A DNA stretch of 62,928 nucleotides, the filler included. It is 7 parts of 7 records of this genome, joined end to end, with 100 filler letters (N's around TTAATTAATTAA, not from the genome) between each part and the next. Parts side by side here need not be neighbours in the genome. Positions count along the whole stretch, not along the records: positions 1 to 10,872 come from SRR31147125_12253; 6 more parts are not named here. One strand, given 5' to 3'. The notes beneath the pieces were generated by a model that saw nothing but the letters and a program-made list of their open reading frames with translations, was not told the DNA's origin and ran no database searches. This document shows positions 73 to 37,476 of the stretch, in pieces (the stretch's first letter is position 1; each line of letters starts with the position of its first letter). Both the position numbers and the translations under genes were made by a program.

Positions 73-1601
73 TTAGTAATCGATGATATCTTCATCAAAA
101 AAACCAGATTGTTTAAAGTATTGTAAAGGAAAGGAATCATCTTTAACCCATTTGAAAGCAATAGACTTTAATTGCTTTGCGGTAATTAAGCATATTGGTG
201 TATCGTTTTCCATTGAATATTTTTTTGATTCTTTTACTGAATTATCTGTGAAAGAAGGCGCTATAACCAAAAAGCTAGCTACAGATTTTTCAGATCCTTT
301 TATATATCTATCAAATTGCTTTATGTGGTCTAAAAGATTGACACTTGTTTCTTTTGATTTGTTGTCCCAAAAAATCAACCTATCATTAATTGATAAAATA
401 CCATCAGGGTGCTCTGTACCTTTTAAAACTAGAGGTTTGTGCTTAAGGTATTTTTCGAAAATATAATTAGTGGCCGATTCGAAATGCCTTTCGCATTCAA
501 TATCTTTTGTTATGATACCTTGATTTCTTAAGTCTTGTAGCTTTCTACTTGCCAATTCATCAAAATATTCAAAATAAATACTTCTGGTATCTTCTAGTGA
601 ATTGATATCAGGTTTTTTGCGCAATCCATCATAATATTCAATGATTCTATCTGCTAGCTCTTTCTTTTGACCACTTACCATCAAACCTAACTCTTGGCAC
701 CACCTTGACAGTGTTTGTGTGTCTAAACCATCGCGAGAATTAAAACCGAGTAAAAGTTTGTATGCATCAAGGCTAGATACAACAAGATTTTGTAGCTCGG
801 GCAAAGTAAGGCTAGAAGAATGGTTGATATTGCCTTTATTTAATATTTCACTTAAATATTTCTTATTACTTATGTGTTTATTTTTGATTAACTCGCCATA
901 GCCATATTTACGTATACTTACACCCCATATTTTGCGTAAAGTTAGTGCTATCTCTGTTGGAATCAAATCGTAATCATTGCCTTTTGAATCCCTGATTGAA
1001 AAACCAGTCCTATTTTTTGCAAGTAGTGTCTAACGCTATTAATCTCTTTTTTGATGTGGATTTGATTATCCAGTTGTGGGAATTTACCAATATCGGCTTC
1101 TATTACATCGGATTCATAATTAGAAATTCTTAAACGCTCTCTTAGTTTTTCAATTAAATTACGCTCGTCCTTAGACAGGGAGTTGTTTGATTCCCATGCG
1201 ACGTTCAAAACAAACTTGTATAATTTAAGATTCTCAGTTGGAATTGTGCTATTGGATATGATGTCTTGTGCTGATTGGCGGTTTATTTCTTGCTCATAAT
1301 TAATTACTTCGATTTCAGTATCATCATGAAGGCTCATAAAATCATCGCTGTTAAGCAAGATAGTTTTAATAATAATCATGCCAATTACGCTTATATTGTT
1401 ATTTTCATTATAAAGTATTTCATTTAAGCTGTTTTCTACATTCTTACAGTCATAGTATTGTGCGTTTACTTTTCTTATCGCATCTTTTGTTTCGTCAACT
1501 GAAAGCCTGCTGTAATCAACTACATAAGCGCTTGCAATTCTTTTGATTTCTAAGCTTGTACTAATAAGACTAATTGCATCGTTAATTTTCAAAATAACCA
1601 C
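73..1601 (-). CDS. Putative nuclease (~510 aa): helical N-terminus, SAP-like DNA-binding motif and C-terminal FokI-like PD-(D/E)XK domain; split by a 1-nt homopolymer deletion
   Basis: ORFs 963..1601 and 73..966 join (GLVFSIRDSKGNDYDLIPTEIAL) if one base is added to the A5 run at 999-1003. SAP-like motif LSRWCQELGLMVSGQKKELADRI; nuclease motifs HPDG..WDNK and QFDRYI. Start may be TTG at 1592. Confidence 0.65.
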
Positions 1602-2129: not shown

Positions 2130-2172
2130 TGTGATATGATTCACAGAAATACATTATCGGATATATTATGAT
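2130..2172 (+). promoter_or_regulatory. Perfect CRP-type box with a class II promoter -10
   Basis: TGTGA-TATGAT-TCACA at 2130-2145; TATGAT at 2167-2172 places the box centre at about -41.5. Confidence 0.75.
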
Positions 2173-2204
2173 GAATCAGAAATATCGTCAAGGAAGGTGA
2201 AACT

Positions 2205-2936
2205 ATGGTTTTAAATAATGAAACATTCTCAATAAAACATCATGCATTGTTATTTAGCATAATCGCTAAACAAAGCAAAATAGCACTAGGTGATAAGGTG
2301 GATGAGACCTTGAAAAATGCGGTTATCAGATATGCATTAGGTAGAGGTGAAAGAATGGGTAAGCGTGCTTTAAAAGATGGCAATGAACTCAACACGTTTA
2401 ATTATTTGCTTTATGGCGAATGGGATAGCTCACAAGAATTGGAGATGGATACTGATTTTATGGCAAAAGAAGCTACGATGAATGTGAAAAAATGTCCATG
2501 GTTTTCAATCTGGGAAGAAGCAGGGCATATTGAGTATGGGAAGATTTATTGTGATTATATAGATTCTACGTTAGCAAAAGGCTTTGGTGGGGATGTTGTA
2601 TTGGATGTAGAAAACACAAGAACTAGTGGAGCTGAAACTTGTGACTTTTTCTTTAGAGGTAAATCCTTTCAAGAAAAGGAATTATATGAGCTTGTTACAA
2701 AGAAGAAAATTCTACAAAACAAAGCGATGAAAGATTGGGAATACCATACTGCTCATCTTTATTTTGCAATGAAAGAAGAACTGATAAAAGAGCATCATGA
2801 AGTAGGGGAGCAAATATTAGAAAAATCACACATAGAGTATTCGAGAGAATTTTCAACGCAAGCAGTTGAAACGATACTTGGATATAGTGATACAGATTTT
2901 AGTTCGGTTAGCGACTATGAGGCAATGAAAAAATAA
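2205..2936 (+). CDS. L-2-amino-thiazoline-4-carboxylate hydrolase family (V4R/H-NOX-like fold) protein
   Basis: RGERMGKRAL..NYLLYGEW, CPW, YCDYID and CDF motifs; SD GGAAGGTG. Confidence 0.75.
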   Translation: MVLNNETFSIKHHALLFSIIAKQSKIALGDKVDETLKNAVIRYALGRGERMGKRALKDGNELNTFNYLLYGEWDSSQELEMDTDFMAKEATMNVKKCPWFSIWEEAGHIEYGKIYCDYIDSTLAKGFGGDVVLDVENTRTSGAETCDFFFRGKSFQEKELYELVTKKKILQNKAMKDWEYHTAHLYFAMKEELIKEHHEVGEQILEKSHIEYSREFSTQAVETILGYSDTDFSSVSDYEAMKK

Positions 2937-2956
2937 AGTTGTCACAGGGGATTGGT

Positions 2957-4120
2957 ATGAAACAAATTTCAGAATATAGAAATGAATTGATAAAAATACG
3001 CAGGCATATTCATATGAACCCTGAATTGTCGTTTAGGGAATATGAAACATCAAAATATGTAACTGAGTATTTAGATAACTTGGGTGTTGCATATAAGAAA
3101 GTTGCAGAAACTGGTGTAATAGCTGAAATAGATAGTGGTATAGAAGGAAAGACAATAGCGTTTAGGTGCGATATGGATGCACTATCCATAAATGAAGTAA
3201 CAGATGTAAGTTTTAAGTCCCGAAATGATGGTGTAATGCATGCATGTGGACACGATGCACATATGGCGATTTTACTGATAACTGTAAAATATATAGTAGA
3301 AAATATAAAAGAATTTTGTGGTAAGATCATCTTTGTTTTTCAACATGCCGAAGAATTACCGCCTGGTGGCGCAGTAGATTTTATCGAATCTCAATTGCTG
3401 GATGGTGTTGAGTATATGTATGGCTTGCATGTCAATGCATATGGAGAAAGTGGAACTATTGTTACTGCATCAGGGACTATACTTAGTTCTGTGGACAAGT
3501 TTAGTGTAGAAATAATAGGAAAAGGAGGTCATGTAGCAATGCCTCATATGACTGTCGATCCTATTATGATTACATCGCAAATTATTAACAATCTTCAATC
3601 GGTGATAAGTAGAAATATGGATCCGCTTGAGTCACTTATATTGTCTGTTGGTTATATTAACGGCGGTAAAGACTTTAATGTTATACCTGAGAAAGTGACA
3701 TTTGGAGGGACAGTCCGAGCACTCTCTTCTGAAACTAGGGATATGGCAGAAAAAAGATTTTATGAGATTGTTACATCAACTGCGAAGATGAATGGCGCTG
3801 TATCAAATATAACATACGATAGAGGATATCCTGTACTAACTAATGATGCCGAAGCAGTGGAATATGTTAAAAAAGCTGTACAAGTGCATGTTTCAGAAAA
3901 GTCATTCTCTAGTATAGATAGACCGATTATGGCCGCAGAAGATTTTGCTTCATATACCCAAAAGTACAAGAGTTGTTTTTCGTTTTTAGGAACATGTACT
4001 AAAGATAGACCTCAGTTTCCTACTCATAATCCTAAGTTTGACTTGGATGAAGATGCGCTTATCAATGGAGTGAAACTATTTGTTGGCTTATTTTTAGATC
4101 ATAATACGGTAAAAGAATAA
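2957..4120 (+). CDS. M20D family amidohydrolase (hippurate hydrolase/ACY1-like)
   Basis: HMNPELSFRE, RCDMDAL, MHACGHD, FQHAEE, GKGGH, AEDF and HNPKF motifs; ATG at 2957 follows SD AGGGGA. Confidence 0.92.
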   Translation: MKQISEYRNELIKIRRHIHMNPELSFREYETSKYVTEYLDNLGVAYKKVAETGVIAEIDSGIEGKTIAFRCDMDALSINEVTDVSFKSRNDGVMHACGHDAHMAILLITVKYIVENIKEFCGKIIFVFQHAEELPPGGAVDFIESQLLDGVEYMYGLHVNAYGESGTIVTASGTILSSVDKFSVEIIGKGGHVAMPHMTVDPIMITSQIINNLQSVISRNMDPLESLILSVGYINGGKDFNVIPEKVTFGGTVRALSSETRDMAEKRFYEIVTSTAKMNGAVSNITYDRGYPVLTNDAEAVEYVKKAVQVHVSEKSFSSIDRPIMAAEDFASYTQKYKSCFSFLGTCTKDRPQFPTHNPKFDLDEDALINGVKLFVGLFLDHNTVKE

Positions 4121-4130
4121 GGAGAACTAT

Positions 4131-5945
4131 ATGCCTAAACATATAAGCAAAATCATTTATACAGACGTGTTAGTGATTGGTGGAGGTGGCGCTGGAATTA
4201 CAGCTGCAGTTGCTGCTTCTAGACAAGGCGCTAATGTTGCGATAGTTTCAAAGGGTAAGATTGGCAATAGTGGAAATACTATCATGATTGGTGGAACTTA
4301 TTCAATGGACGGTCAAAGTGCATATGAGGAATATGGATTTGATGAAGCTGATAAGAACTTTACTAAAAAGGATCTATATGAATCGATTGTAAAAGATTCA
4401 TTTTATCTTAGTGATCAAAATATTGTAAAGCAGTTTGTTGAGGATAGCCCCAAAATTGTTGCAGAAGTAGCAGGATGGGTTGAAGAAGCTGGACAAAAAG
4501 CAATGTTTTTTCCTCCTGCAATGTGGTTTTTATCTGGTAGAGCTCTTGGGAAAGGTCTGTATCATGGATTGAAATCTGAAAGCAATATTACTGAAATTAA
4601 TGACGTAATCATAGTTGATTTGATAAAAGATAAGGATAATGTCGTTGGAGCTATTGGCTTAGACGTCTATAGTGGAGATATAGTTAAATTTGTTTCTAAG
4701 TCAGTTGTGATTGCAACAGGTGGTTTTCAACCACACAAATTGAAGAATACAAATTCGGATATGACTGGAGACGGGATTGCAATGGCATATCGTGCTGGTT
4801 GTGAAATATCTGATATGGAGTTTTTACTGTTCTTGATTACTGCATTGGAACCGCATGAAATGAAGGGGTCAATTTTTTCAATGATTGCAGTGGCCATTTC
4901 TGATGATTATAATGAGTGTTTCTTTAGCGATAAAAATGGAGACAAGATTGAAATCCCAGATGATATGATGCAAATACTTAAATCTAGTGAACTTTGCAAA
5001 TTGATACATCTTTACTACTTCGGAAAAGCCATTTTTCATGGCCGAGGAACAAAAAACGATGGAATCTATTTTGATTTTAGTGACTTTACAAATGAAAGAA
5101 TTGAAGCTATATTTGATAACTTAGAGATCACTGATTACCTATATAAAAAGGGGTTCTATCATGGCGATGATTTAATGGAATACAAAAAAATTCTGTTGGA
5201 AAATAAAAAAATAGAAACTGGACTTGGTAATGAGTATACAGTTGGCGGCATCGTTATAAACGAGAATATGGAAACTAATATAAAAGGTGTTTATGCTGGC
5301 GGAGAATGTGCAAGTGGATGCTTTGGTTCGAACAGAGTTGCCGATGCCACCGTTGAGATGCTGACTCAAGGCTATAAGGCTGGCGAAAACGCAGCTAAAT
5401 ATGCTGAATCTCAAAACTTTATAAAAAATGACAATCTAGGTATTGATATTGCAAAAGAGATCTTAAGTTATCTTGATAATAAAGAAGGCATTTCGGCCAA
5501 AGATGCAAATTTAGAAATCGAAAGAATATCTGGATATGGAATATCTTATGTTAGAACAGAAGAGCTCTTAACTAAGGCGATTGAAGAATATGAGATACTT
5601 GAAAAAAAACTATCAAATGTGACTTTGAAATCAAACGCTCGAAGATATAACTTTGAATGGATACAAGCTATACAAGCTAAGAATAGACTTTTCTGCGCAA
5701 AAGCGGCTACAATTATGGCTAAAGAAAGAAAAGAAAGTAGGGGCTTGCATCTTAGAGAGGATTATCCTCTAGTGGATAATGAAAACTACCTTCAAAGAAC
5801 GATTGCCTCACAAAAAAATGGCAAAATATCGTTAAGATTTAGACCACCTATAGAGGTTGATATTCCTTTACCAGAAAAAGAGAAAATAGATTTTATAAAA
5901 TTCATCATTAAAGAGGATATGGGGCTTGAGAATATTGATATTTAG
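4131..5945 (+). CDS. FAD-dependent oxidoreductase of the SdhA/FrdA/NadB/AprA superfamily, paralog 1; substrate probably not succinate/fumarate
   Basis: DVLVIGGGGAG, IATGG, TGDG, YAGGE, NR and ERKESRGLH motifs; covalent-FAD His and dicarboxylate-binding His residues absent. Confidence 0.88.
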   Translation: MPKHISKIIYTDVLVIGGGGAGITAAVAASRQGANVAIVSKGKIGNSGNTIMIGGTYSMDGQSAYEEYGFDEADKNFTKKDLYESIVKDSFYLSDQNIVKQFVEDSPKIVAEVAGWVEEAGQKAMFFPPAMWFLSGRALGKGLYHGLKSESNITEINDVIIVDLIKDKDNVVGAIGLDVYSGDIVKFVSKSVVIATGGFQPHKLKNTNSDMTGDGIAMAYRAGCEISDMEFLLFLITALEPHEMKGSIFSMIAVAISDDYNECFFSDKNGDKIEIPDDMMQILKSSELCKLIHLYYFGKAIFHGRGTKNDGIYFDFSDFTNERIEAIFDNLEITDYLYKKGFYHGDDLMEYKKILLENKKIETGLGNEYTVGGIVINENMETNIKGVYAGGECASGCFGSNRVADATVEMLTQGYKAGENAAKYAESQNFIKNDNLGIDIAKEILSYLDNKEGISAKDANLEIERISGYGISYVRTEELLTKAIEEYEILEKKLSNVTLKSNARRYNFEWIQAIQAKNRLFCAKAATIMAKERKESRGLHLREDYPLVDNENYLQRTIASQKNGKISLRFRPPIEVDIPLPEKEKIDFIKFIIKEDMGLENIDI

Positions 5946-5985
5946 TATTTAAGCTGTATTAATGTGATTATCCAAGGAGGAAATA

Positions 5986-6287
5986 ATGGTTGTTAAAGTA
6001 TTAAGAGGAGAAAATGGTGTTTCATGCGGTTTTGATACATATGAAGTTCCAATTACAAAAGAAGATAGATATACCGCACTTGATATCCTTCAACATATAT
6101 ACAACAATTTTGATAGTTCATTAGCTTTTTTAGTCATAGCGTTTGCAATCATGGAATTTGCGGCAGATGTGCAATTAAAATTAACGGCAAAGTAAGACTA
6201 TCCTGTACATATTTAGTAACAGAGGATGAACTTGTGCTAGAACCTAAAAATAATAGTGTTGTTAGAGATTTAGTAACAAACCCGTAA
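5986..6287 (+). CDS. Small [2Fe-2S] protein like the SdhB/FrdB N-terminal domain (~100 aa); frameshifted
   Basis: Adding one T to the T6 run at 6126-6131 gives LAFFSHSVCNHGICGRCAIKINGKVRLSC..VVRDLVTNP*, paralogous to 8151..8429. Confidence 0.85.
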
Positions 6288-6353
6288 AGATTAGAAGTTA
6301 TATAGCCTAATTAAGGGGTAAGTATTGAAAAAATTATGAGGGAGGTAAACTAT

Positions 6354-8141
6354 ATGAGAGTAGATGAAAGAATGACGACCGATGTACTTGTTATAGGCGG
6401 TTCAGGAGCTGCATTGATGAGTGCTATATCTGCCAAGAAAAATGGAGCTAAAGTTCTTATGGTTTCGAAAGGGAAGGTTGGCAGGAGTGGAAACGCAATA
6501 ATGATTGGTGGAGGATTTGGTATTGATGGTATAAGTGCTCAAAATCTTTGTGATGAAGAAGCTGATACAAATTATACAAAAGAATCCGTATATAACAAAT
6601 TACAGGTTAGCGGATTTGGACTTGCTGATCAAAAATTGTGCAGGAAATTTGTAGATGTTTCGCCAAATGCAGTTCAAGAATTTTTCAGCTGGGAGAAAAA
6701 TAAAAAGCGCAACTACATTTATAATAAGTATTCCCATATGTGGATAACTGCTGGTAAAGTGTTTGGAAATACGCTTAAAAGCGGATCGAACTTATACAAA
6801 GATATTGATACTTTAGAAGACTGCATTTGTGTGGATTTATTAAAATCTGGCGATGAGGTTTGTGGTGCAATTGTAGTTAATATCTATACTGGAGATATTA
6901 TAAAAGTTAGTGCAAAAAGCGTTATTATGGCTACTGGTGGTTTTCAACCTTTTTCATTAAAAAATTCAATATCAGATATGACAGGTGATGGAATTGCAAT
7001 GGCTTTAAGAGCTGGCGCAAGAGCTAAGGACATGGAATTTTTGCTTTTTATTCCAACTATTGTTAAACCGGACAGATTCAAAGGATCAATCTTACCGTAT
7101 CTGTTTACAATGCCAGGTTTTTTAGAGGCAAAAGTAAAAATAACCGATTTAGATGGTGATCTTATCGAAATTGAAGATAAGTATAAATCTATTCCGCCTA
7201 ATAATAAGATGGCTAAATTGGTTTACGCCTATACATACGGCAAGAGAATGTTTGAAAAGTCGGATAAGCACGGACTTCAGATGTATTATGATTTTTCTGA
7301 TAACACAGAAGAATACTTAAGAGAAGCATTTGTTGATTTAGCAAACAAGTTTAGCGCTTGGCATAAAAAGGGCCATTATAATGGGTTAGACCTTGCTGAT
7401 GTTGCAGAATATATCATACAAAACGATATGAAACTTGAAGTTGGACTCGGAAATGAATACTCTATGGGCGGAATAATAATTGACGATAAAATGAAAACGG
7501 ATGTTAAAGGACTTTATGCGGCAGGCGAAGTAACTGCTGGGCTGTTTGGAGCCTTTAGAAGTGCAGATGGTTTAGTTGAAATGTTGGCAAATGGTGTAAT
7601 TGCTGGGGAGAGCGCAGTTGAAAATATAAAAAGCATACCTAAATGCCTTGAGGCTGATAATGAGGATGAGATTTTAGATGACCTGCTTAATGTGTTTGAT
7701 CAACAAGATGGTGAAAATCCATTAGTCAGATTGAAGGAAATTGAAGCAAATAATGATTATGGATTTAACTTCTTTAGGACAGGTGACAGATTGAACAAAT
7801 CTAAAAAAGTCCTTGATGAATTAATCCATAAGCCTATGTCAGTTAGTTATAAAGGTAGAGAATATAATAACGAATGGATAACTAGTATACTGGCAAAAAA
7901 TTTATCTTTAGTATCAAAACTAGGTATAGAGGCGGCAATTTTAAGGACTGAGTCGAGGGGCACACATATGAGGTACGATTGTCCAATAGTTGACAGTGAA
8001 AATCAAACGCACAATATAGTATTTTGGCTTGAAAATGGTGAGGTTAAGCAGGATTTTGAAAAACCAGTTGTGGTTGATTTTGATTTGCCAACTACAAATC
8101 ATGATTGCCTACTGGATTATATATTGGACAGTGTTAAGTAG
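6354..8141 (+). CDS. FAD-dependent oxidoreductase of the SdhA/FrdA/NadB/AprA superfamily, paralog 2
   Basis: DVLVIGGSGA, MATGG, SDMTGDG, GLGNEYSMGG, YAAGE and RTESRGTH motifs; ATG at 6354 follows SD GGAGGT. Confidence 0.88.
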   Translation: MRVDERMTTDVLVIGGSGAALMSAISAKKNGAKVLMVSKGKVGRSGNAIMIGGGFGIDGISAQNLCDEEADTNYTKESVYNKLQVSGFGLADQKLCRKFVDVSPNAVQEFFSWEKNKKRNYIYNKYSHMWITAGKVFGNTLKSGSNLYKDIDTLEDCICVDLLKSGDEVCGAIVVNIYTGDIIKVSAKSVIMATGGFQPFSLKNSISDMTGDGIAMALRAGARAKDMEFLLFIPTIVKPDRFKGSILPYLFTMPGFLEAKVKITDLDGDLIEIEDKYKSIPPNNKMAKLVYAYTYGKRMFEKSDKHGLQMYYDFSDNTEEYLREAFVDLANKFSAWHKKGHYNGLDLADVAEYIIQNDMKLEVGLGNEYSMGGIIIDDKMKTDVKGLYAAGEVTAGLFGAFRSADGLVEMLANGVIAGESAVENIKSIPKCLEADNEDEILDDLLNVFDQQDGENPLVRLKEIEANNDYGFNFFRTGDRLNKSKKVLDELIHKPMSVSYKGREYNNEWITSILAKNLSLVSKLGIEAAILRTESRGTHMRYDCPIVDSENQTHNIVFWLENGEVKQDFEKPVVVDFDLPTTNHDCLLDYILDSVK

Positions 8142-8150
8142 GAGGAAATT

Positions 8151-8429
8151 ATGATTATAAAGGTCTTAAGAGAAAATGGGATTCAAAGTTATGAAATTAG
8201 TATTGATAAAGATAAAACAATAATGCAAGCTCTTGAGCATATTACGCTTACTCAAGATCCGTCGCTAGCATATTATTCGCACAGTGTTTGCAATCAAGGA
8301 ATATGTGCTAGATGTTTAATTAAAGCAAATGGCAAGGCGGTATATATGTGTTTAGAAAAAGTTGGAGATAAAGATCTTCTGTTAGAACCAGTAAACGACA
8401 GAGTAGTAAGAGACTTAGTAGTGAAATAA
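8151..8429 (+). CDS. Small [2Fe-2S] protein like the SdhB/FrdB N-terminal domain (92 aa)
   Basis: QDPSLAYYSHSVCNQGICARC..NG..C..VVRDLVV; no 4Fe-4S/3Fe-4S domain. Confidence 0.88.
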   Translation: MIIKVLRENGIQSYEISIDKDKTIMQALEHITLTQDPSLAYYSHSVCNQGICARCLIKANGKAVYMCLEKVGDKDLLLEPVNDRVVRDLVVK

Positions 8430-8447
8430 ATTAAAGGAGATTTGGGG

Positions 8448-9782
8448 ATGGAAAACATGGATAAATCAACGAAATTAACATTAGGCAAAAAGATCAAATA
8501 TAGCGCTACAGAAACTGGGCTATTGATGTTGGGGATTACACTTTCAACGCAGTTGATGTTCTTCTTAACGGATATAGTTGGTATTGCGGCAGCAACTGTA
8601 GGGACTATGTTCTTACTAACTAGAATATGGGATGCCATTAATGACATTATTATGGGTGTTATAGTGGATAAATATAATTCTAAAATGGGGAAATACAGAC
8701 CTTACATACTTTTTGGAGGCATAGCTGTTGCACTTGCAATCATTTTAAACTTTAGTGCTCCCAACTTGTCCTACGCTGGAAAAGTAGTATATATGTATCT
8801 TGTGTATATACTCTATGGAATGGCGTATACAGTAGTGTTTATACCTTATACGACAATGATGATAAATATTACTAACACTGATAGTGATAGAACTTCATTA
8901 TCCTCTATGAAGGGCGCTTTTCAAATGGGCGGAGTGCTTATTGCATCAATGCTTACAGTTCCTTTAGTAACAAAATTTGGCGGTGGCGAACTTAGTGCTA
9001 CAGGTTATCAAATGGCTGCTATTATATTTGCTGTTGCAGCGCTTACATTGATGAGTATAACTTTCTTTGGAGTCAAAGAAAATAAGGAAAAATACAATGA
9101 TACATCTGATGTGAAATACGACTTTAAGACAATTAAAAGAGTAGTGCTTACAAATAAGCCATTGATGTTAGTTATGGCTATATACTTCTTGATATATTTT
9201 AGAATCTATCTTAATAATTTATCTGCTACATATTTCTTTGTGTGGAGATTAGGCCGCCCTGAACTTATTGGACCGTATCTAGGAATTGCTACGGGTGCTA
9301 CGATATTAACTGCTTTTGTAGCTCCTAAATTGAGTATGAAATTTGGTAAAAAAACATTTATATCTGTTTCTGTAATTCTTGCGGCTGTTGGTTACTTAGG
9401 AATGTTTGCAGCAAGAACAGGTAATATAGGATTGCTTTTAGGATCAGCTACATTCTGCGGTCTTACTGGCGGAGTACCTTCACTATTAATATGGGCATAT
9501 GTTGCCGAAGTAGCAGATTATACAGCAAATAAGGAAGGGAAACGTTTTGATGGTATGATTTACGCCGCTGTAAGCTTTTTTAACAAACTAGCTGCCGGAC
9601 TATCAGGATGGTTTTCAGGGATTATCTTAACTTTTTACGGCTATATAGCAAACCAGCCACAAACTGAAACTGCGTTATTTGGTATAGATATGGTGTTTTT
9701 AATAGTTCCAGCTATCTGTATGATTTTAATCATTGTTCCGGTTGTCTTATATAAAGCTAACACTTCTAAAAATCAATTATAG
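8448..9782 (+). CDS. MFS glycoside-pentoside-hexuronide (MelB/UidB-like) cation symporter
   Basis: RIWDAIND, GKYRPY and ADY..G motifs; about 12 hydrophobic segments. Confidence 0.9.
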   Translation: MENMDKSTKLTLGKKIKYSATETGLLMLGITLSTQLMFFLTDIVGIAAATVGTMFLLTRIWDAINDIIMGVIVDKYNSKMGKYRPYILFGGIAVALAIILNFSAPNLSYAGKVVYMYLVYILYGMAYTVVFIPYTTMMINITNTDSDRTSLSSMKGAFQMGGVLIASMLTVPLVTKFGGGELSATGYQMAAIIFAVAALTLMSITFFGVKENKEKYNDTSDVKYDFKTIKRVVLTNKPLMLVMAIYFLIYFRIYLNNLSATYFFVWRLGRPELIGPYLGIATGATILTAFVAPKLSMKFGKKTFISVSVILAAVGYLGMFAARTGNIGLLLGSATFCGLTGGVPSLLIWAYVAEVADYTANKEGKRFDGMIYAAVSFFNKLAAGLSGWFSGIILTFYGYIANQPQTETALFGIDMVFLIVPAICMILIIVPVVLYKANTSKNQL

Positions 9783-9902
9783 TAATCAAAGAATGAATAT
9801 TGTAATAAGGTGAATGAAATGAAGAGTCTTTCATAGAAGTGATTAAAAAAATATAATGAATTGCGCAGTGAAAGACTTTTTATATGCATAAATTCCGCAT
9901 AA

Positions 9903-9931
9903 TTGACCACCAATCTTCACAATGGTATAAT
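9903..9931 (+). promoter_or_regulatory. Sigma-A promoter of the Crp/Fnr regulator gene
   Basis: TTGACC-N17-TATAAT with extended -10 TG. Confidence 0.7.
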
Positions 9932-9959
9932 TTAATTAAATAATACTTAGGAGAAGAGA

Positions 9960-10612
9960 ATGTTAGGCGGTAATTTTAAGAGGCTACCTATTACAAAATA
10001 TGCTAAAGATGCTAAAACTACAAAATATAGCGCTGGGAGCATTATATTAAGACAAGGTGATATAAACGATCACTGTATCAATATTATTGAAGGAAATGTA
10101 AGGATTGATATTTTAGATGTTAAGGGTAGGGTTAAATTGATTAACATTTTTGATGGAGGTCTTATTGGAATAAGCAGACTTATTTCTGGAGGCACTGTAT
10201 CCGCTAATGTTTATGCTATAACTGACACAGTCGTTCATAAAATTTATAGAGCGGAGTTTTTAGACTTAATAGACAATAATGCTGTTTTCAGAAATTATGC
10301 ATTTATAAATATGGAAAAAATAATAGACATATATATTAACAAGTCTATGAGAGAGGCTTATAATACTACCTTTGAAATATTAACATTTGTATTGTTGAAA
10401 TATATGCGAGAATATGGCGTTGCTCAAGAAGATGGTAGTATAATGATCGATATAGAACTAACTGATGAAACATTAGGGGAAATTGTTGGTGTAAGCAGAG
10501 AAACAATTACAAAAAACCTAATGAAGTATAAAATAGATAAAACTATATCTAAAAAGAAGAAAAAATATATATTCACGATGTTGAAAAACTAGAAGAAGCA
10601 ATTATGTACTAA
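9960..10612 (+). CDS. Crp/Fnr family transcriptional regulator; C-terminal homopolymer frameshift
   Basis: cNMP-binding-like N-terminus (IILRQGD, IIEGNV); HTH LTDETLGEIVGVSRETITK; one extra A near 10560 restores IYIHDVEKLEEAIMY*. Confidence 0.9.
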
Positions 10613-10872: not shown

Positions 10873-10972
10873 NNNNNNNNNNNNNNNNNNNNNNNNNNNN
10901 NNNNNNNNNNNNNNNNTTAATTAATTAANNNNNNNNNNNNNNNNNNNNNNNNNNNNNNNNNNNNNNNNNNNN
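10873..10972. other. Artificial contig linker
   Basis: 44 N + TTAATTAATTAA (stops in all six frames) + 44 N. Confidence 0.98.
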
Positions 10973-21206: not shown

Positions 21207-23212
21207 GTGGTGAATATACTATCTAAAGTAAGTGTACTTAAGGGAGTTGGCGAAAAAAGAGAGGAGCTTTTTAATGCAAAGGGTATTTATACCGTTCTGG
21301 ATTTGTTGTTTTATTTGCCAAAATCATTTAAGGATTTTAGCAGAGTAGTAAAAATAACTGAAGATGTGGAAAAAGAAAGCTTATATTATGTTAAGGTAGA
21401 ATCTAAGCCTAGCTTTGGGTTTGGAAAAAACAGATCTAGGTTTTTAAGGTTTAAGGTTGCGGATGATAGTGGCGATGCTTTTGTATATTATTTTAATATG
21501 TCATATATGGCAGGGCACATTACGAAGGGCGATAATATGTATCTTTTTGGAAAGATGTATGTTAAAGAAGGAAAGAGATATATTGTAAACCCAAATATTC
21601 ATAGGACTATAGATGACAAGAGAAAACTTATTCCTGTTTATCCTATTATTCATGGTATTGGTCAAAAAACCATAACAAAGTGTATAGAGCTTTCTCTTGA
21701 AAATATAAAAGGCAGTGCTGATTATCTTAGTGATGAATTTAAGGACGAATTTGATTTGCCACAATTTTATGAGGCGCATAAAAATAATCATTTCCCTGAT
21801 GAATTAGGGCAAATAAAAAAATCTAACGATAGGTTTTCTTTAGAAGAACTTTTGGTTTTTTTGTGTCTTATTGAAAACTATACCAGCAAAAAAACAAAAC
21901 TGGATTTGAACTTTAACTTTGGAGATGATGTTGACAATCAATTTTTACAGCAGATAGACTTTAGGCCAACAGGTGCTCAAACTAAAGCTATGTTGGATAT
22001 AAAAAAGGACTTTGAATCTGGATATGCTATGAATAGATTGGTTCAGGGCGATGTGGGGTGTGGGAAGACCATTGTCGCTTTTTATGCGATGTTTTTGGCG
22101 CATAGGGCAGGTCATCAATCTATGATGATGGCGCCAACCGAGGTTTTAGCAAGACAGCATTACGAAAACGCTAAAACCATTTTTTCGGGTATAGGTATAG
22201 AGATTATTACGGGGTCTATGACAAAGAAGGAAAGAGAAGAAACAAAGAATAGACTCGAAAGCGGTCAAAGCAGTATGGTTTTTGGAACGCATGCATTGTT
22301 GTTTTCAAAAATAGAATATAGATCGCTTGGTTTAGCGATAACAGATGAGCAGCACAGGTTTGGTGTTAGTCAGCGTGCTAAAGTAGCGTACGGCGGTAGT
22401 TTGAATACTTTGGTTATGTCAGCAACACCAATACCGAGAACCCTGGCGTTAGTGCTTTATTCTAATATAGATGTTTCAATAATTGACGATATGCCGAATG
22501 GAAGGCAAAAAACCGAGACATTTATTGTAGGCGAAACCAAAAGAAAAGATATGTACGACTTTATAAAAAAAGAGTGTAAAAAGGATTTCAGGCTTATGTT
22601 GTTTGTCCTTTAATAGAAAGCGAAGACGATGACAAAAGTGTTTATAATATATATGAACAGGTAAAAGGTGAATTTGGCATAAAATCTTGTGAAATACTGC
22701 ATGGAAAAATGAACAACGCAGAAAAGAATGAAATCATGTTAAGGTTTAAGAGAGGAGATATAGATGTTTTGATATCCACAACAGTTATTGAAGTTGGTGT
22801 GGATGTGAAAAATGCAACTATTATTGCGATAGAGCAGGCTGATAGGTTTGGCATGTCGACACTTCATCAGTTAAGAGGCAGAGTTGGAAGAGGAAGCGAT
22901 AAGGCTTATTGCTTTTTGGTAAGTGATGTAAAAAACGATAGACTTGAAGCGGTAAAACAACAGAGTGATGGATTTAAACTTGCTGAGATGGATTTGGAGA
23001 TAAGAGGTCCTGGTCAGTTTTTGGGTAAAAAGCAGCATGGTATTGATGATTTTTATATGCATAGGATTATTAACGATACTAAAATGATAGAAAAAGCGAA
23101 GGGTATTTATGCACGCATGAAAAATGGCGAGTTTAGCCATGAATACAATATTGTTAAAGAGAATTCGCAAAGAAAGTATAAAAGGCTTATGAAGGATATT
23201 GCACTTAATTAA
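21207..23212 (+). CDS. recG: ATP-dependent DNA helicase RecG; split by a 1-nt deletion near 22580
   Basis: GDVGCGKT, DEQHRFG, SATPIPRT, TTVIEVGVD and QLRGRVGR motifs; one extra A restores KKGFQAYVVCPLIE. Confidence 0.96.
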
Positions 23213-24190: not shown

Positions 24191-24290
24191 NNNNNNNNNN
24201 NNNNNNNNNNNNNNNNNNNNNNNNNNNNNNNNNNTTAATTAATTAANNNNNNNNNNNNNNNNNNNNNNNNNNNNNNNNNNNNNNNNNNNN
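24191..24290. other. Artificial contig linker
   Basis: 44 N + TTAATTAATTAA + 44 N. Confidence 0.98.
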
Positions 24291-30372: not shown

Positions 30373-30472
30373 NNNNNNNNNNNNNNNNNNNNNNNNNNNN
30401 NNNNNNNNNNNNNNNNTTAATTAATTAANNNNNNNNNNNNNNNNNNNNNNNNNNNNNNNNNNNNNNNNNNNN
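30373..30472. other. Artificial contig linker
   Basis: 44 N + TTAATTAATTAA + 44 N. Confidence 0.98.
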
Positions 30473-32320: not shown

Positions 32321-33361
32321 TTAGTTCGAGTCTTGGGCATGCCTTTCGCCTTGGCTTTCGGCGGTTGCTTTGGCAAGCGCCTGCTCCGCCACAAAGCGCG
32401 GCGGCTTGCGATTCATGCTGTTGATGGCATGGGCGATGCAGCCTCCTTTGCACTGGCCGCGGCGCATGTATACACAGGTCAGGCATTCGGGGCGGCAACC
32501 CAGTGAACGGTAAGGTCCGAACACGCGTTGATAATAGTCGTGGATGGCCTGGCGCGAAGGGTAGTCGGAGAGCCGGGTACGGTATACGTCGGACAGCGGA
32601 AAGCAGCTCCATACCTCCTGATTCGGGCCGATATCGATGATGGGGTTGCATACGGATTTGAACCCTTCGGTTTGGGTCATTATAATTCCCAGTTGCTTTT
32701 CGGTGAACATGCACAGCGTCATCCCGCAGTCAAAGCCGATAATAATGTCCTCTTTTATGCAATCCCCGGCCATGCGCACAATGGTTTCGCCCAGCTCCGG
32801 ATATCGAGCCGGCGGGAAATAGGCATTGTCCTGTCCCACGATGGGTTGCGCCACCCCCACCCGAATGCGCTTGTTCAGATTATAGCGTTTGATAAAATCG
32901 ATCAGATAGCCATAGTCCACATCCGTTTCGGAGATGGTAATCCCCAGGGTCACGGATGGTCCCAGTTGCTCCAGGGCGCGATTGCGTTTGGCCTGTTTGC
33001 TCGGGCTGTCAACTTCAAAGTCCGAAATATTGCATATAATGGACGTACTCCCAGGCTTCAGGCTGGATAAAAAATCGACCTTCTTGGGCCCCATGATACC
33101 ATTGGAAAAAAGTTTGATATGAAACTGTCGTTTTTGGGCTTCTTCCATGATGGAGATGAATTGGGGATGCAAAGTGGGTTCACCTCCCAAGATGCCGATG
33201 ACCTGGACACCCGAGCCTTTCAGATAATCGAAAATTTCGACAATATGATCATAGGGCATATGGATGCTCTTTTTCTGACGTTTCATCTCGTCCAGGCGGC
33301 GTTGGGCGAAACAAAACCTGCACGATCGATTACAAAGGGCGGTGATAATGAGATTGGCCAT
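32321..33361 (-). CDS. Radical SAM enzyme with a C-terminal SPASM-like Fe-S domain
   Basis: CNRSCRFC, GGEPTLHP, FSNG; Cx14C..Cx3Cx2Cx7Cx3C. Confidence 0.92.
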   Translation of the reverse strand: MANLIITALCNRSCRFCFAQRRLDEMKRQKKSIHMPYDHIVEIFDYLKGSGVQVIGILGGEPTLHPQFISIMEEAQKRQFHIKLFSNGIMGPKKVDFLSSLKPGSTSIICNISDFEVDSPSKQAKRNRALEQLGPSVTLGITISETDVDYGYLIDFIKRYNLNKRIRVGVAQPIVGQDNAYFPPARYPELGETIVRMAGDCIKEDIIIGFDCGMTLCMFTEKQLGIIMTQTEGFKSVCNPIIDIGPNQEVWSCFPLSDVYRTRLSDYPSRQAIHDYYQRVFGPYRSLGCRPECLTCVYMRRGQCKGGCIAHAINSMNRKPPRFVAEQALAKATAESQGERHAQDSN

Positions 33362-33376
33362 CGAAAAGTCCTTATT

Positions 33377-34192
33377 TTATGTTTTTTTCATGAAAACGAG
33401 TAGCCGCTGGCAGACAACGGCGCCTATTATCCAATCATGGGATAACCCAACACGGTCTCCCGGAGGGGGGCTGATCAGTCCAAAACGGTTCAGCGCCGCC
33501 AAAATCGATGCTTGACCCTCGTTTTTGGCATACAGGGCCGCTGTAATCGACTCGGGCAAGGTCACCACAAAACGATGTTTGAGCCCGGCGTCAATCATTG
33601 GAGAAAGCATTCGCATGGGCGACGGGCTGCCGTCCCAGGCCTCGTCATCGGTAAGATCACCCAGTTCTATCAGCGATGCGTAATTGGCGCCAAGTGCCAT
33701 GGCGGTCCGGATTTGCGCGGCGTTATCCATGGCGCCGCGGATTATGACAATCTCTACATGCGGATGGACGTGGTGGCCGGCGAGTTGAATTCCTTTGCGG
33801 CGAATACGCTTGAACTCTCCCATGCAGAATTCAAATTCCGTTCTTAGGGCAGGATTATGGCCATCAAAGAACGTTCGGAAAAAATATATGCCGCCATTTG
33901 CCAGTTGCTCAACGGTCCGTGGTGCCGAGAACAGTGTGAACGGCGCCGTCAATTTGATTCTCAAGGCGCTCGCCAGCCTGGCCTGAGCCGCCGCATGCAC
34001 AATGGTGGCGATCGGTGTGCCATCGCCGCAAACCAGCTCGACATTTGCATTGCTCAGTTGGCCCAAAAGGTCTGGTAATTGCGCCTTGTCAACGGCCGTC
34101 TGCTCTTTGCCGGACAGACAACACCCCGGGCACCCCAGTTCACAAGCACCGCCTAACACGACTCTTTTGTATTCCGAATCAAACCCATTCAC
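33377..34192 (-). CDS. Highly divergent radical SAM-like protein
   Basis: N-terminal CELGCPGC (CxxxCxxC); ELVCGDG in the GGEP position; GTG start overlaps the upstream stop. Confidence 0.6.
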   Translation of the reverse strand: MNGFDSEYKRVVLGGACELGCPGCCLSGKEQTAVDKAQLPDLLGQLSNANVELVCGDGTPIATIVHAAAQARLASALRIKLTAPFTLFSAPRTVEQLANGGIYFFRTFFDGHNPALRTEFEFCMGEFKRIRRKGIQLAGHHVHPHVEIVIIRGAMDNAAQIRTAMALGANYASLIELGDLTDDEAWDGSPSPMRMLSPMIDAGLKHRFVVTLPESITAALYAKNEGQASILAALNRFGLISPPPGDRVGLSHDWIIGAVVCQRLLVFMKKT

Positions 34193-36385: not shown

Positions 36386-36404
36386 GGCGGCTTACATTTT
36401 CCGT

Positions 36405-37376: not shown

Positions 37377-37476
37377 NNNNNNNNNNNNNNNNNNNNNNNN
37401 NNNNNNNNNNNNNNNNNNNNTTAATTAATTAANNNNNNNNNNNNNNNNNNNNNNNNNNNNNNNNNNNNNNNNNNNN
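37377..37476. other. Artificial contig linker
   Basis: 44 N + TTAATTAATTAA + 44 N. Confidence 0.98.

What the first reader, a model, noticed from the sequence alone, without database searches (positions are those of the whole stretch)
2130..10612. Uncharacterised anaerobic catabolic operon with twin flavoprotein/[2Fe-2S] modules
Seen: co-oriented, closely spaced genes for a V4R/ATC-hydrolase-like protein, M20 amidohydrolase, flavoprotein 1 + 2Fe-2S, flavoprotein 2 + 2Fe-2S, GPH symporter and Crp regulator. No membrane anchor, no nadA/nadC and no aprB. I do not recognise this as a described pathway. Inference: import of a conjugated small molecule (e.g. an N-acyl amino acid, heterocycle or glycoside), amide cleavage, and two sequential redox steps or a heteromeric soluble oxidoreductase.
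Basis: partly seen in the sequence, partly recalled or inferred. Interest (0 to 1): 0.75.

Follow-up and report, generated by a model that had tools for sequence, protein, structure and literature searches.

The report
Uncharacterised heterocycle-catabolism operon with twin flavoenzymes
A real operon from an anaerobe carries two copies of an unstudied iron-sulfur flavoenzyme related to succinate dehydrogenase, next to a ring-opening hydrolase and an amidase, and probably recovers cysteine from ring-shaped cysteine derivatives.

Summary
The eight co-oriented genes are real (window 2205-10592, +). There are two caveats. The first 2Fe-2S gene is broken by a one-base loss in a T-run. The cassette's contig ends at 10872, because the window is seven contigs glued by N linkers.

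The two flavoproteins belong to a distinct, unnamed clade of the SdhA/FrdA/NadB superfamily. Compared with E. coli FrdA, only one of four fumarate-binding or catalytic residues survives in 69 family members. The iron-sulfur partner is a ~100-aa 2Fe-2S protein with no further cluster domains.

In 39 related loci with full flanks:
- the 2Fe-2S gene is adjacent in 39;
- an ATC-hydrolase-family gene lies within 6 kb in 31;
- an M20 amidohydrolase in 22;
- an L-cysteine-desulfidase-family gene in 14.

Transporters and regulators vary between loci. None of 69 other family loci has two flavoprotein modules. The window's two belong to different clades, each found alone elsewhere. Parallel modules therefore fit better than sequential steps or a heteromer.

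Best reading (inferred): a carboxylated S,N-heterocycle is converted by the flavoenzyme to a thiazoline-type ring. An AtcB-like hydrolase opens the ring, and the M20 enzyme deacylates the product to cysteine. I found no characterised homologue in print.

The parts
2130..2145 (.). Perfect CRP-type palindrome TGTGA-N6-TCACA, 60 nt before the first start codon. It overlaps the -35-like hexamer of a promoter-like site at 2140-2167 and is the likely operator of the cassette's Crp-family regulator.
   Evidence: one exact match in 62.9 kb against 0.11 expected. One search gives the promoter-like site. Binding by the encoded regulator is inferred.
2205..2936 (+). ATC_hydrolase-family protein (long form, 243 aa) with a V4R-like fold. 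Proposed ring-opening hydrolase, the AtcB analogue.
   Evidence: PF14196, 83.1 bits. C97, Y115, C116 and C146 are invariant in all 49 and all 51 family sequences; model pLDDT 95; only weak fold matches, to the MopR/DmpR/PoxR sensor domains and Bet3.
2939..4120 (+). M20D amidohydrolase (aminoacylase/hippuricase type). Proposed N-acyl-amino-acid deacylase, the AtcC/YxeP analogue.
   Evidence: TIGR01891, 370 bits against a cut-off of 153.75. PDB 4ewt E 1.1e-80, ILL2 E 1.7e-69, B. subtilis YxeP E 3e-66.
4131..5945 (+). Flavoprotein 1 (604 aa). SdhA/FrdA/NadB superfamily, new clade, non-covalent FAD.
5986..6289 (+). 2Fe-2S subunit 1 (Fer2_3), interrupted by a one-base loss in the T-run at 6125-6130. 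The N part reads 5986-6195 in its own frame. The C part, with the Cx4Cx2Cx11C ligands, reads 6132-6289.
   Evidence: Other genes in the window are split too. recG is broken at an A-run; the hybrid sensor kinase is split with the break not pinned, though an A7 run lies nearby. No frameshift-stimulating RNA structure lies downstream.
6336..8141 (+). Flavoprotein 2 (601 aa; probable true start 6354). Same family as flavoprotein 1 but a different clade.
8151..8429 (+). 2Fe-2S subunit 2 (92 aa). It corresponds to the N-terminal domain of SdhB/FrdB only.
   Evidence: Fer2_3 E 1.6e-15; the Cx4Cx2Cx11C motif is present.
8442..9782 (+). GPH-family cation symporter, the presumed substrate importer. It is 45-48% identical to the GPH genes of L020, L023 and L038; in L020 and L023 that gene lies two genes after the clade-2 flavoprotein's 2Fe-2S gene.
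9960..10592 (+). Crp-family regulator (cNMP-binding domain plus HTH_Crp_2), with its own promoter-like site at 9903-9931.
   Evidence: The sequence holds a single Cys, so there is no FNR-type cluster motif (read; the motif itself is recalled).

Best explanation
This is a Crp-controlled catabolic operon for a small carboxylated heterocycle, most likely a cysteine-derived S,N-ring. Candidates are thiazolidine-4-carboxylates (cysteine-aldehyde adducts such as thioproline) or, in the reductive direction, thiazole-4-carboxylates.

Shown by the analysis:
- The genes are real.
- The two flavoproteins and their ~100-aa 2Fe-2S partners belong to one distinct clade of the SdhA/FrdA/NadB superfamily. That clade has lost the residues that define fumarate, succinate or aspartate enzymes.
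- Across genomes this two-gene core travels with ATC-hydrolase-family genes, M20 amidohydrolases and, often, L-cysteine-desulfidase-family genes. Transporters and regulators change from locus to locus.

Inferred mechanism:
1. The GPH symporter imports the substrate.
2. The FAD/2Fe-2S enzyme adds or removes two hydrogens next to the ring carboxylate. This gives a delta2-thiazoline-4-carboxylate-type cyclic thioimidate. Electrons pass through the 2Fe-2S subunit to or from a soluble carrier such as ferredoxin.
3. The AtcB-like protein opens the ring by adding water at C2, giving an N-acyl-cysteine.
4. The M20D enzyme removes the acyl group, giving L-cysteine and an acid.
5. Elsewhere in the genome, a cysteine desulfidase would yield pyruvate, H2S and NH3.

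The two flavoenzyme modules are paralogues brought together. They probably handle two related substrates or isomers and share the single hydrolase/amidase pair.
For: Genes and families.

The flavoprotein clade is distinct:
- Every NCBIfam equivalog scores far below its cut-off. The best is TfrA at 210.7 bits against 718; nadB scores 145 against 452.75.
- In the tree, the 69 family rows are separated from two Sdh-like outgroup rows by branches of 3.1 and 4.9.

Active site compared with E. coli FrdA and NadB, over 69 family sequences:
- covalent-FAD His is Gly in 69 of 69;
- His232 is never His (0 of 69);
- catalytic Arg287 is never Arg (0 of 69);
- His355 is Glu in 68 of 69;
- Arg390 is kept in 69 of 69. 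One carboxylate anchor therefore remains.

Iron-sulfur partner: 62 of 63 partner ORFs carry Cx4Cx2Cx9-14C, and the one miss is cut by a contig end. Most are about 100 aa.

Context:
- Of 69 family loci, the 2Fe-2S gene is adjacent in 63, and five of the six misses have under 400 bp of contig left on the downstream side; L002 has about 1.6 kb without one.
- Of 39 loci with at least 5 kb on both sides: 2Fe-2S 39, ATC-hydrolase family 31, M20 22, cysteine-desulfidase family 14, ATC or M20 33, both 20.
- The ATC-family gene sits directly beside the flavoprotein/2Fe-2S core on the same strand in 29 of the 43 loci that have one.

Identity of the neighbours:
- The neighbour cluster c1 matches solved L-cysteine desulfidase 9he0 at E 2.3e-23 over nearly its full length.
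- The M20 enzyme matches YxeP at E 3e-66. That YxeP is the N-acetylcysteine deacetylase of the B. subtilis S-(2-succino)cysteine pathway is recalled.

Chemical precedents:
- L-ATC hydrolase followed by a carbamoyl-cysteine amidohydrolase gives cysteine in Pseudomonas, and cysteine is then broken down to pyruvate, H2S and NH3 (review PMC10821248, passages).
- Thioproline is oxidised by PutA to 2,3-thiazoline-4-carboxylate and then hydrolysed to cysteine plus formate (bioRxiv 10.1101/2020.03.19.981027, passages).
- T4C, 2-methyl-T4C and 2-ethyl-T4C form from cysteine and aldehydes in an anaerobic gut protist and release cysteine enzymatically (PMC4222106, abstract and passages).

Other support:
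- Pyruvate:ferredoxin oxidoreductase or ferredoxin genes lie in 7 of 69 loci.
- Regulation: the CRP palindrome lies at the promoter.
Against: - There is no biochemical evidence for any step.
- The only characterised ATC_hydrolase member is known to me from Pfam's name, one review and recall. The family has no solved structure. Its fold resembles ligand-binding V4R sensor domains, where three Cys and an acidic residue hold a structural zinc (the zinc site is recalled). The protein could therefore be a binding or accessory subunit and not a hydrolase.
- AtcC-type carbamoylases belong to another M20 branch. TIGR01879 scores only 28 bits here.
- No cysteine desulfidase gene lies in the window, though the contig is only 10.9 kb. 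It is missing from 25 of the 39 full-flank loci.
- The closest relatives of flavoprotein 1 (L001, L003) carry Amidohydro_1 genes in place of M20. That fits other N-heterocycles equally well.
- GPH symporters usually carry glycosides.
- In the SdhA superfamily, NadB is the only enzyme I know of that oxidises a C-N bond, and it acts on a primary amine (recalled).
- The direction of the redox step cannot be told from sequence.
Confidence: 0.4

Rival explanations
1. The operon reductively degrades a sulfur-free N-heterocycle, such as an imidazole-, pyrimidine- or hydantoin-type carboxylate. The flavoenzyme saturates a ring C=C next to the carboxylate, a hydrolase opens the ring, and the amidase releases an ordinary amino acid.
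For: - The logic is the same as in the best explanation, and one carboxylate-binding Arg is kept.
- Amidohydro_1 cyclic-amidase-type genes replace M20 in L001, L003, L054 and L067, including the nearest relatives of flavoprotein 1.
- The cysteine desulfidase family gene is absent from 25 of 39 full-flank loci.
Against: - The ATC_hydrolase family's only named activity is on a thiazoline.
- Cysteine-desulfidase-family genes occur in 14 of 39 loci, far above what a gene present once or twice per genome would give by chance (the chance estimate is inferred).
- Dedicated enzymes of other families are already known for orotate, uracil and urocanate (recalled).
Confidence: 0.2
2. The operon cleaves a cysteine thioether such as S-(2-succino)cysteine without oxygen. 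The SdhA-like enzyme dehydrogenates the succinyl part, the ATC-hydrolase-like protein hydrolyses the resulting vinyl thioether to oxaloacetate plus (N-acyl)cysteine, and the M20 enzyme deacylates.
For: - The flavoprotein descends from succinate dehydrogenase.
- The M20 enzyme is similar to YxeP.
- Cysteine desulfidase genes are linked.
- A malate/lactate dehydrogenase gene lies in the Anaerotruncus loci L040 and L043.
- TRAP and TTT carboxylate transporters occur in some loci.
Against: Three of the four dicarboxylate-binding or catalytic residues are lost in all or nearly all of the 69 sequences. That argues against a succinyl substrate bound as in SdhA.
Confidence: 0.1
3. One reading: the two flavoprotein/2Fe-2S pairs form one heteromeric enzyme or catalyse two consecutive redox steps on one substrate.
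For: - The two pairs lie in tandem in one operon with only one hydrolase and one amidase.
- The closest relatives of the ATC-like protein, flavoprotein 1 and flavoprotein 2 (78%, 83% and 85% identity) are each listed from a single 11,844-bp contig of one source. The tandem layout is therefore probably conserved in at least one relative (that it is the same contig is inferred).
Against: - None of 69 other family loci has two family members within its flanks.
- The two proteins fall in different clades, with support 97 and 100.
- Genomes that have both clades keep them at separate loci: Anaerocolumna jejuensis L016 and L036, and one MAG L012 and L034.
- The clade-2 block flavoprotein, 2Fe-2S, (short ATC), GPH exists on its own in L020 and L023.
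Confidence: 0.1
4. It is an ordinary fumarate reductase, succinate dehydrogenase, L-aspartate oxidase or APS reductase that has been mis-set in an odd context.
For: Pfam domains and weak NCBIfam hits. Source names read 'succinate dehydrogenase / fumarate reductase flavoprotein subunit'.
Against: - The defining residues are absent.
- All equivalog scores are far below their cut-offs.
- The iron-sulfur subunit lacks the 4Fe-4S and 3Fe-4S domains.
- No anchor, nadA/nadC or aprB gene lies on the contig.
Confidence: 0.03

Closest known systems
AtcB/AtcC pathway of Pseudomonas (L-2-amino-delta2-thiazoline-4-carboxylate to L-cysteine)
   Same: A PF14196 protein lies directly before an M20-family amidohydrolase (2-nt gap). 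The known pair opens a thiazoline-4-carboxylate ring and then removes the N- or S-carbamoyl group to give cysteine, which is then degraded to pyruvate, H2S and NH3 (review PMC10821248).
   Different: - The amidase here is the aminoacylase branch (TIGR01891), not the carbamoylase branch (TIGR01879, 28 bits).
- The pair is embedded with FAD/2Fe-2S enzymes that the Pseudomonas system is not known to have (recalled).
- The hosts are anaerobes.
- Activity on ATC is untested.
Succinate dehydrogenase / fumarate reductase (SdhAB, FrdAB), thiol:fumarate reductase TfrAB, L-aspartate oxidase NadB
   Same: The domain architecture of the flavoprotein is the same (FAD_binding_2 plus Succ_DH_flav_C). The small subunit matches the 2Fe-2S N-terminal domain of SdhB/FrdB/TfrB. 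The best solved match is M. smegmatis SdhA, 7d6v, E 1.1e-35.
   Different: - No covalent-FAD His.
- The His232, Arg287 and His355 equivalents are replaced.
- The iron-sulfur subunit has no 4Fe-4S or 3Fe-4S domains.
- There is no membrane anchor.
- The gene partners differ.
Thioproline detoxification in E. coli (PutA or ProC oxidation to thiazoline-4-carboxylate, then hydrolysis to cysteine plus formate)
   Same: The chemistry proposed here is the same: dehydrogenation of a thiazolidine ring, ring opening to N-formylcysteine, then deformylation.
   Different: The E. coli enzymes belong to unrelated families and act as a side activity. No dedicated hydrolase or deformylase is assigned there (PMC4222106 passage). 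The cassette here would be a dedicated, oxygen-independent route.
B. subtilis yxe operon (S-(2-succino)cysteine breakdown; YxeP deacetylase)
   Same: An M20D amidohydrolase similar to YxeP (E 3e-66) releases cysteine as the last step of a cysteine-conjugate salvage operon that includes a transporter (the pathway is recalled).
   Different: That pathway uses an O2-dependent flavin monooxygenase and an acetyltransferase. It has no SdhA-like enzyme, no 2Fe-2S protein and no PF14196 protein (recalled).
Dye-linked L-proline dehydrogenase complexes of Thermococcales (recalled, not tested here)
   Same: In an anaerobe, an FAD dehydrogenase with a small iron-sulfur ferredoxin-like subunit oxidises a cyclic amino acid.
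   Different: Those flavoproteins belong to the DAO/sarcosine-oxidase family and have other subunits. This is a functional analogy only.

Membership tests
SdhA/FrdA fumarate reductase-succinate dehydrogenase flavoprotein | FAD_binding_2 plus Succ_DH_flav_C domain architecture | tested here: met
   both flavoproteins match both domains. Flv1 E 1.6e-35 and 1.5e-22; Flv2 E 4.8e-33 and 3.8e-12.
SdhA/FrdA fumarate reductase-succinate dehydrogenase flavoprotein | Dicarboxylate-binding and catalytic residues His232, Arg287, His355, Arg390 (E. coli FrdA numbering, recalled; located by motif in the E. coli sequence fetched) | tested here: not met
   69 family sequences: His232 position 0 of 69 His; Arg287 position 0 of 69 Arg; His355 position Glu in 68 of 69; only Arg390 is kept (69 of 69).
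SdhA/FrdA fumarate reductase-succinate dehydrogenase flavoprotein | Covalent FAD attachment His (RSHT motif) | tested here: not met
   Gly in 69 of 69.
SdhA/FrdA fumarate reductase-succinate dehydrogenase flavoprotein | Iron-sulfur subunit with 2Fe-2S, 4Fe-4S and 3Fe-4S clusters, plus a membrane anchor or an HdrB-like domain | tested here: not met
   the partner is 92 aa with one Cx4Cx2Cx11C motif only. No anchor gene lies on the contig.
SdhA/FrdA/TfrA/NadB/AprA curated equivalogs (NCBIfam) | Score above the curated cut-off | tested here: not met
   TfrA 210.7 against 718; sdhA_frdA 199 against 567; nadB 145.1 against 452.75; AprA 88.3 against 557.
L-aspartate oxidase (NadB) | Same His/Arg active-site set as FrdA, plus genomic link to nadA/nadC | tested here: not met
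   NadB shares the His, His, Arg and Arg with FrdA, and the family does not. No nadA or nadC lies on the contig or among the recurring neighbour clusters.
ATC hydrolase (AtcB, PF14196) | Match to the family profile above the gathering score | tested here: met
   83.1 bits against 28.1, profile positions 4-145 of 145; the atlas neighbours all carry PF14196.
ATC hydrolase (AtcB, PF14196) | Partnered with an amidohydrolase that frees cysteine from the ring-opened product | tested here: inconclusive
   An M20 gene lies 2 nt downstream, but it belongs to the TIGR01891 branch, not the carbamoylase branch.
ATC hydrolase (AtcB, PF14196) | Hydrolysis of L-2-amino-delta2-thiazoline-4-carboxylate | not testable with these tools
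   Needs an enzyme assay.
M20D amidohydrolase (TIGR01891) | Score above the curated cut-off, plus the M20 dimerisation domain | tested here: met
   370.2 against 153.75. M20_dimer E 4.7e-12.
GPH cation symporter (TIGR00792) | Score above the curated cut-off | tested here: met
   332.3 against 231.35. Named-substrate equivalogs (MelB, glucuronide, YagG) all fall below their cut-offs.
Crp/Fnr regulators | cNMP-binding domain plus Crp-type helix-turn-helix. For the FNR branch, an N-terminal Cys cluster. | tested here: met
   both domains match. Only one Cys in the protein, so it is not FNR-like (the motif is recalled). No equivalog reaches its cut-off.

The most novel reading that the evidence does not exclude
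The cassette is one example of a widespread, undescribed anaerobic route that recovers and ferments cysteine locked in thiazolidine-, thiazoline- or thiazole-4-carboxylates, which are cysteine-aldehyde adducts and related rings. The route would run on a new clade of SdhA-like FAD/2Fe-2S enzymes whose active site has been rebuilt for a ring substrate. It would be coupled to the first physiological role for the ATC-hydrolase family outside an industrial Pseudomonas curiosity. Paralogous modules with different transporters would then define a family of heterocycle-specific enzymes in gut and sediment anaerobes.
Probability: 0.3. Interest if true: 0.75.

Novelty: new variant of a known kind. Interest (0 to 1): 0.6.

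Why it matters
If this reading is right, three things follow.
- A function would be assigned to a flavoenzyme clade now labelled only 'FAD-binding protein'. The clade includes clusters with hundreds of member sequences (835, 170 and 122 members) and named gut isolates: Clostridium symbiosum, Pygmaiobacter, Anaerotruncus and Flavonifractor.
- The ATC-hydrolase family would gain a natural role.
- An oxygen-independent source of cysteine and H2S from cysteine-aldehyde adducts would be revealed. Such adducts form wherever free cysteine meets formaldehyde or acetaldehyde.

It would also show how the succinate-dehydrogenase scaffold was re-tooled, with three of four catalytic residues replaced and the iron-sulfur subunit cut to one cluster.

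If the sulfur-ring idea is wrong, a conserved four-part module still remains: flavoprotein, 2Fe-2S protein, PF14196 protein and amidase. It is a well-defined target for finding its substrate.

Tried and rejected
- **Complex prediction** of flavoprotein 1 with the ATC-hydrolase-like protein: no verdict (score 0.01, mark 0.34). This is evidence neither for nor against binding.
- **Programmed -1 frameshift** at the T TTT TTA site of 2Fe-2S gene 1: no downstream structure (-12.5 kcal/mol, z +0.44, 136 of 200 shuffles fold as well). recG is broken by the same kind of homopolymer indel, and the hybrid sensor kinase is also split. A sequencing or assembly error is the likelier cause; a recent pseudogene is not excluded.
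- **Sequence search of solved structures** with the ATC-like protein: no hit.
- **Fold search:** 0 matches at E <= 0.001; the best is 6.8e-3, to the MopR sensor domain.
- **Riboswitch or other RNA** on the contig: none at E <= 0.1.
- **Terminator-like sites:** 0 found. Promoter-like sites are no more frequent than in shuffles (41 against 44.9).
- **Homologue on plasmids:** none at E <= 1e-40.
- **Cysteine desulfidase, short ATC or second M20 gene elsewhere in the window:** none. The only hits are weak matches to the cassette's own M20 and ATC genes.
- **Protein atlas look-up:** it only repeated the Pfam name.
- **Literature:**
  - Searches were badly aimed, with generic terms.
  - Search 23 found four papers that mention the ATC-hydrolase name. 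The two I opened mention it only in passing.
  - Searches found no paper describing such a cassette or a dedicated thioproline dehydrogenase.
  - The original AtcB paper is not held.
So it stayed unchecked whether they share one contig, in what gene order, and whether their first 2Fe-2S gene is intact.

Full report
**What is in the sequence**

Between 2205 and 10592 there are eight co-oriented reading frames on the + strand:
- an ATC_hydrolase-family protein, 2205-2936 (PF14196, 83.1 bits);
- an M20D amidohydrolase, 2939-4120 (TIGR01891, 370.2 bits against a cut-off of 153.75);
- flavoprotein 1, 4131-5945;
- a 2Fe-2S gene, 5986-6289;
- flavoprotein 2, 6336-8141;
- a second 2Fe-2S gene, 8151-8429;
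- a GPH symporter, 8442-9782 (TIGR00792, 332.3 bits against 231.35);
- a Crp-family regulator, 9960-10592.

The gaps are 2, 10, 40, 46, 9 and 12 nt, then 177 nt before crp.

Three points need adding.

1. The first 2Fe-2S gene is broken. The frame from 5986 ends at 6195. The remainder, with all four cluster cysteines, reads in another frame at 6132-6289. Both pieces align colinearly with the second 2Fe-2S protein; the C part is 58% identical over 50 residues. The break lies in a T6 run at 6125-6130, and one more T would restore the frame.
   - The site looks like a -1 slippery heptamer, but no stimulating structure follows it (z +0.44).
   - recG in the same window is split by a one-base loss in an A-run, and a hybrid sensor kinase is split too.
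   - I take the frameshift for an assembly error. A fresh pseudogene is not excluded.
2. The window is seven contigs joined by N44-TTAATTAATTAA-N44 linkers. The cassette's contig is 1-10872. The pnp and gap genes after it are not real neighbours, and 'absence' of other genes means absence from 10.9 kb.
3. The finding's start coordinate is a perfect CRP-type palindrome, TGTGATATGATTCACA, at 2130-2145. It is the only exact match in the window, with 0.11 expected and 10 of 100 shuffles having one anywhere. It overlaps the -35-like hexamer of a promoter-like site at 2140-2167. A second promoter-like site at 9903-9931 precedes crp. No terminator-like site and no Rfam match were found on the contig.

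**What the flavoproteins are**

Both have the SdhA/FrdA/NadB architecture. Every curated equivalog scores far below its cut-off: TfrA 210.7 against 718, nadB 145.1 against 452.75, AprA 88.3 against 557. The best solved relative is M. smegmatis SdhA, 7d6v, E 1.1e-35.

I fetched E. coli frdA and nadB and aligned them with the two window proteins and 67 relatives. Using E. coli FrdA numbering:

| FrdA residue | Role | In the 69 family sequences |
|---|---|---|
| His44 | covalent FAD | Gly in 69 of 69 |
| His232 | substrate binding | I/L/F/M/A/C, never His |
| Arg287 | catalytic | S/T/M/A/L/C, never Arg |
| His355 | substrate binding | Glu in 68 of 69 |
| Arg390 | substrate binding | kept in 69 of 69 |

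The hinge motif around Thr244/Glu245 is replaced by a KGSI(L/Y/F)P stretch. Family-specific near-invariant residues include N49, D60-G61, D158, Q200-P201, K290, E368, F398 and D405.

The family therefore fails the membership test for fumarate reductase, succinate dehydrogenase and aspartate oxidase, while keeping the fold and one carboxylate anchor.

The partner proteins are short. In 62 of 63 partner ORFs there is a single Cx4Cx2Cx9-14C motif, and the one miss is cut by a contig end. This is the N-terminal 2Fe-2S domain of SdhB without the 4Fe-4S and 3Fe-4S domains.

**Relatives and their neighbourhoods**

Protein searches found many relatives, named at best 'FAD-binding protein'. Apart from one close relative, identity is at most 59% for flavoprotein 1 and at most 56% for flavoprotein 2.

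A scan of one genome per species gave 73 loci. Of these, 69 belong to the family and four are distant. I called ORFs in all of them, labelled them by BLAST against the window's proteins, clustered the rest, and named the recurring clusters with Pfam, NCBIfam and PDB searches.

Counts:
- A 2Fe-2S gene is adjacent in 63 of 69 loci. Five of the six misses have under 400 bp of contig left on the downstream side; L002 has about 1.6 kb without one.
- Among the 39 loci with at least 5 kb on both sides:

| Gene within 6 kb | Loci of 39 |
|---|---|
| 2Fe-2S (adjacent) | 39 |
| ATC_hydrolase family (long or short form) | 31 |
| M20 amidohydrolase | 22 |
| ~430-aa protein matching solved L-cysteine desulfidase (9he0, E 2.3e-23) | 14 |
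| ATC or M20 | 33 |
| both ATC and M20 | 20 |

The ATC-family gene lies directly beside the flavoprotein/2Fe-2S core on the same strand in 29 of the 43 loci that have one. In the Clostridium carboxidivorans group it sits between the 2Fe-2S and flavoprotein genes.

Transporters differ widely: SsuA-type ABC 7, NhaC-like 6, Nramp-like 6, TRAP 6, SBP5 ABC 4, LivK ABC 3, GPH 3, TAXI 3, TTT 2. Regulators differ too: MarR, LysR, sigma-54 activators, IclR and Crp.

Pyruvate:ferredoxin oxidoreductase or ferredoxin genes occur in 7 of 69 loci. Some loci carry Amidohydro_1 genes in place of M20, including the closest relatives of flavoprotein 1 (L001, L003).

**The twin modules**

A quick maximum-likelihood tree was used because the careful search did not finish.
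- Flavoprotein 1 sits in an 18-row clade (support 97), nearest L001-L003.
- Flavoprotein 2 sits in a 24-row clade (support 100), nearest L020, L023 and L027.

L020 and L023 have the order flavoprotein, 2Fe-2S, short ATC, GPH, M20 (L027 has only short ATC, flavoprotein, 2Fe-2S, M20 on its short contig). The GPH genes of L020, L023 and L038 are 45-48% identical to the window's.

No other locus has two family members within its flanks. Genomes with both clades keep them apart (L016 and L036; L012 and L034). The window therefore joins a clade-1 block (ATC, M20, flavoprotein 1, 2Fe-2S) to a clade-2 block (flavoprotein 2, 2Fe-2S, GPH) that has lost its own short ATC and M20 genes.

The layout is probably not an assembly chimera. 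The closest relatives of the ATC-like protein (78%), flavoprotein 1 (83%) and flavoprotein 2 (85%) are each listed from a single contig of 11,844 bp from one source.

This pattern argues for two parallel paralogous modules sharing one hydrolase/amidase pair. It argues against a heteromer or two consecutive steps.

**The ATC-hydrolase-like protein**

It has no solved relative by sequence. A confident model (pLDDT 95) matches only weakly: the best E is 6.8e-3, and none reach 0.001. The matches are the V4R-type aromatic sensor domains of MopR, DmpR and PoxR, and TRAPP Bet3.

Across the 49 family sequences and the 51, C97, Y115, C116 and C146 are invariant, and R47, G59 and D120 nearly so. Three Cys plus an acidic residue resemble the zinc site of those sensor domains (recalled). 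This leaves open whether the metal is catalytic or structural.

A complex prediction with flavoprotein 1 gave no verdict.

**How it most likely works**

The only characterised PF14196 enzyme opens a delta2-thiazoline-4-carboxylate ring, and an M20-family amidase then frees cysteine (review passages). Here the same two gene types lie 2 nt apart, and relatives add a cysteine desulfidase.

A flavoenzyme that keeps one carboxylate anchor could make the thiazoline in two ways:
- by dehydrogenating a thiazolidine-4-carboxylate. This is the chemistry known as a side activity of PutA on thioproline, which ends in cysteine plus formate (passages);
- by reducing the C4=C5 bond of a thiazole-4-carboxylate, in the manner of fumarate or urocanate reduction.

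Thiazolidine-4-carboxylates form spontaneously from cysteine and aldehydes, and they accumulate in an anaerobic gut protist. The varied transporters would then reflect different 2-substituents.

All of this is inference. I put about 0.3 on the sulfur-ring version and about 0.4 on the whole statement as worded. The last is effectively excluded.

**Novelty**

I found no paper that characterises this cassette or clade.
- Searches gave nothing. Searches were poorly aimed.
- Four papers mention the ATC-hydrolase name. The two I opened do so only in passing.
- The library lacks most subscription journals, so the absence is not proof.

The parts belong to known superfamilies. The active-site make-up, the single-cluster partner and the conserved association are new. 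I rate it a new variant of a known kind, interest 0.6.

Noticed in passing
window 10873-10972, 24191-24290, 30373-30472, 37377-37476, 43089-43188, 49133-49232: The window is not one piece of DNA. It is seven contigs joined by N44-TTAATTAATTAA-N44 linkers, so gene neighbourhoods across these points are not real.
   Followed up: yes
window 21207-22613 and 22709-23212: recG is split in two by a one-base loss in an A-run at about 22565-22582. This is the same kind of homopolymer indel as in the first 2Fe-2S gene and points to assembly errors.
   Followed up: partly
window 57751-58245 and 58257-61802: A hybrid two-component sensor (Reg_prop, Y_Y_Y, HATPase, receiver, AraC-type HTH) is also split into two frames. 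It lies on a contig with a sulfatase, an M28 peptidase and a GH43 gene. That looks like a polysaccharide-utilisation context and may not come from the same organism as the cassette.
   Followed up: no
window 73-966 (-) and 963-1601 (-): Divergent from the operon are a protein with SAP-domain and weak FokI-cleavage-domain matches and a 212-aa protein with no family. This may be a nuclease or defence pair.
   Followed up: no
window 32321-37370 (-): On another contig lies a run of genes: radical SAM, unknown, B12-binding radical SAM, Kdo/WaaP-like kinase and ABC ATPase. It resembles a peptide-modification cluster.
   Followed up: no
L054 3240-4508: In one Deltaproteobacteria MAG the 2Fe-2S partner is fused to a glyoxalase/VOC-type domain. 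That locus has no ATC-hydrolase gene, so the fused domain may be an alternative ring-processing module.
   Followed up: no
L016 and L036 (Anaerocolumna jejuensis); L012 and L034; L023 and L047: Single genomes carry two family cassettes at separate loci, with different transporters. This fits a family of paralogous modules with different substrates.
   Followed up: partly
L045, L047, L052, L057: A sub-clade of the flavoprotein-2 group is preceded by a URO-D/MtaA-like methyltransferase-family gene (seen in all four). In L045, L047 and L052 it is followed by a TAXI-TRAP transporter, and no ATC-hydrolase or M20 gene was detected in any of the four (L047 and L057 have short flanks).
   Followed up: no
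window 49248-49535: A 95-aa GyrA C-terminal fragment starts right after a contig junction. It is the end of a gene truncated by the contig start.
   Followed up: partly
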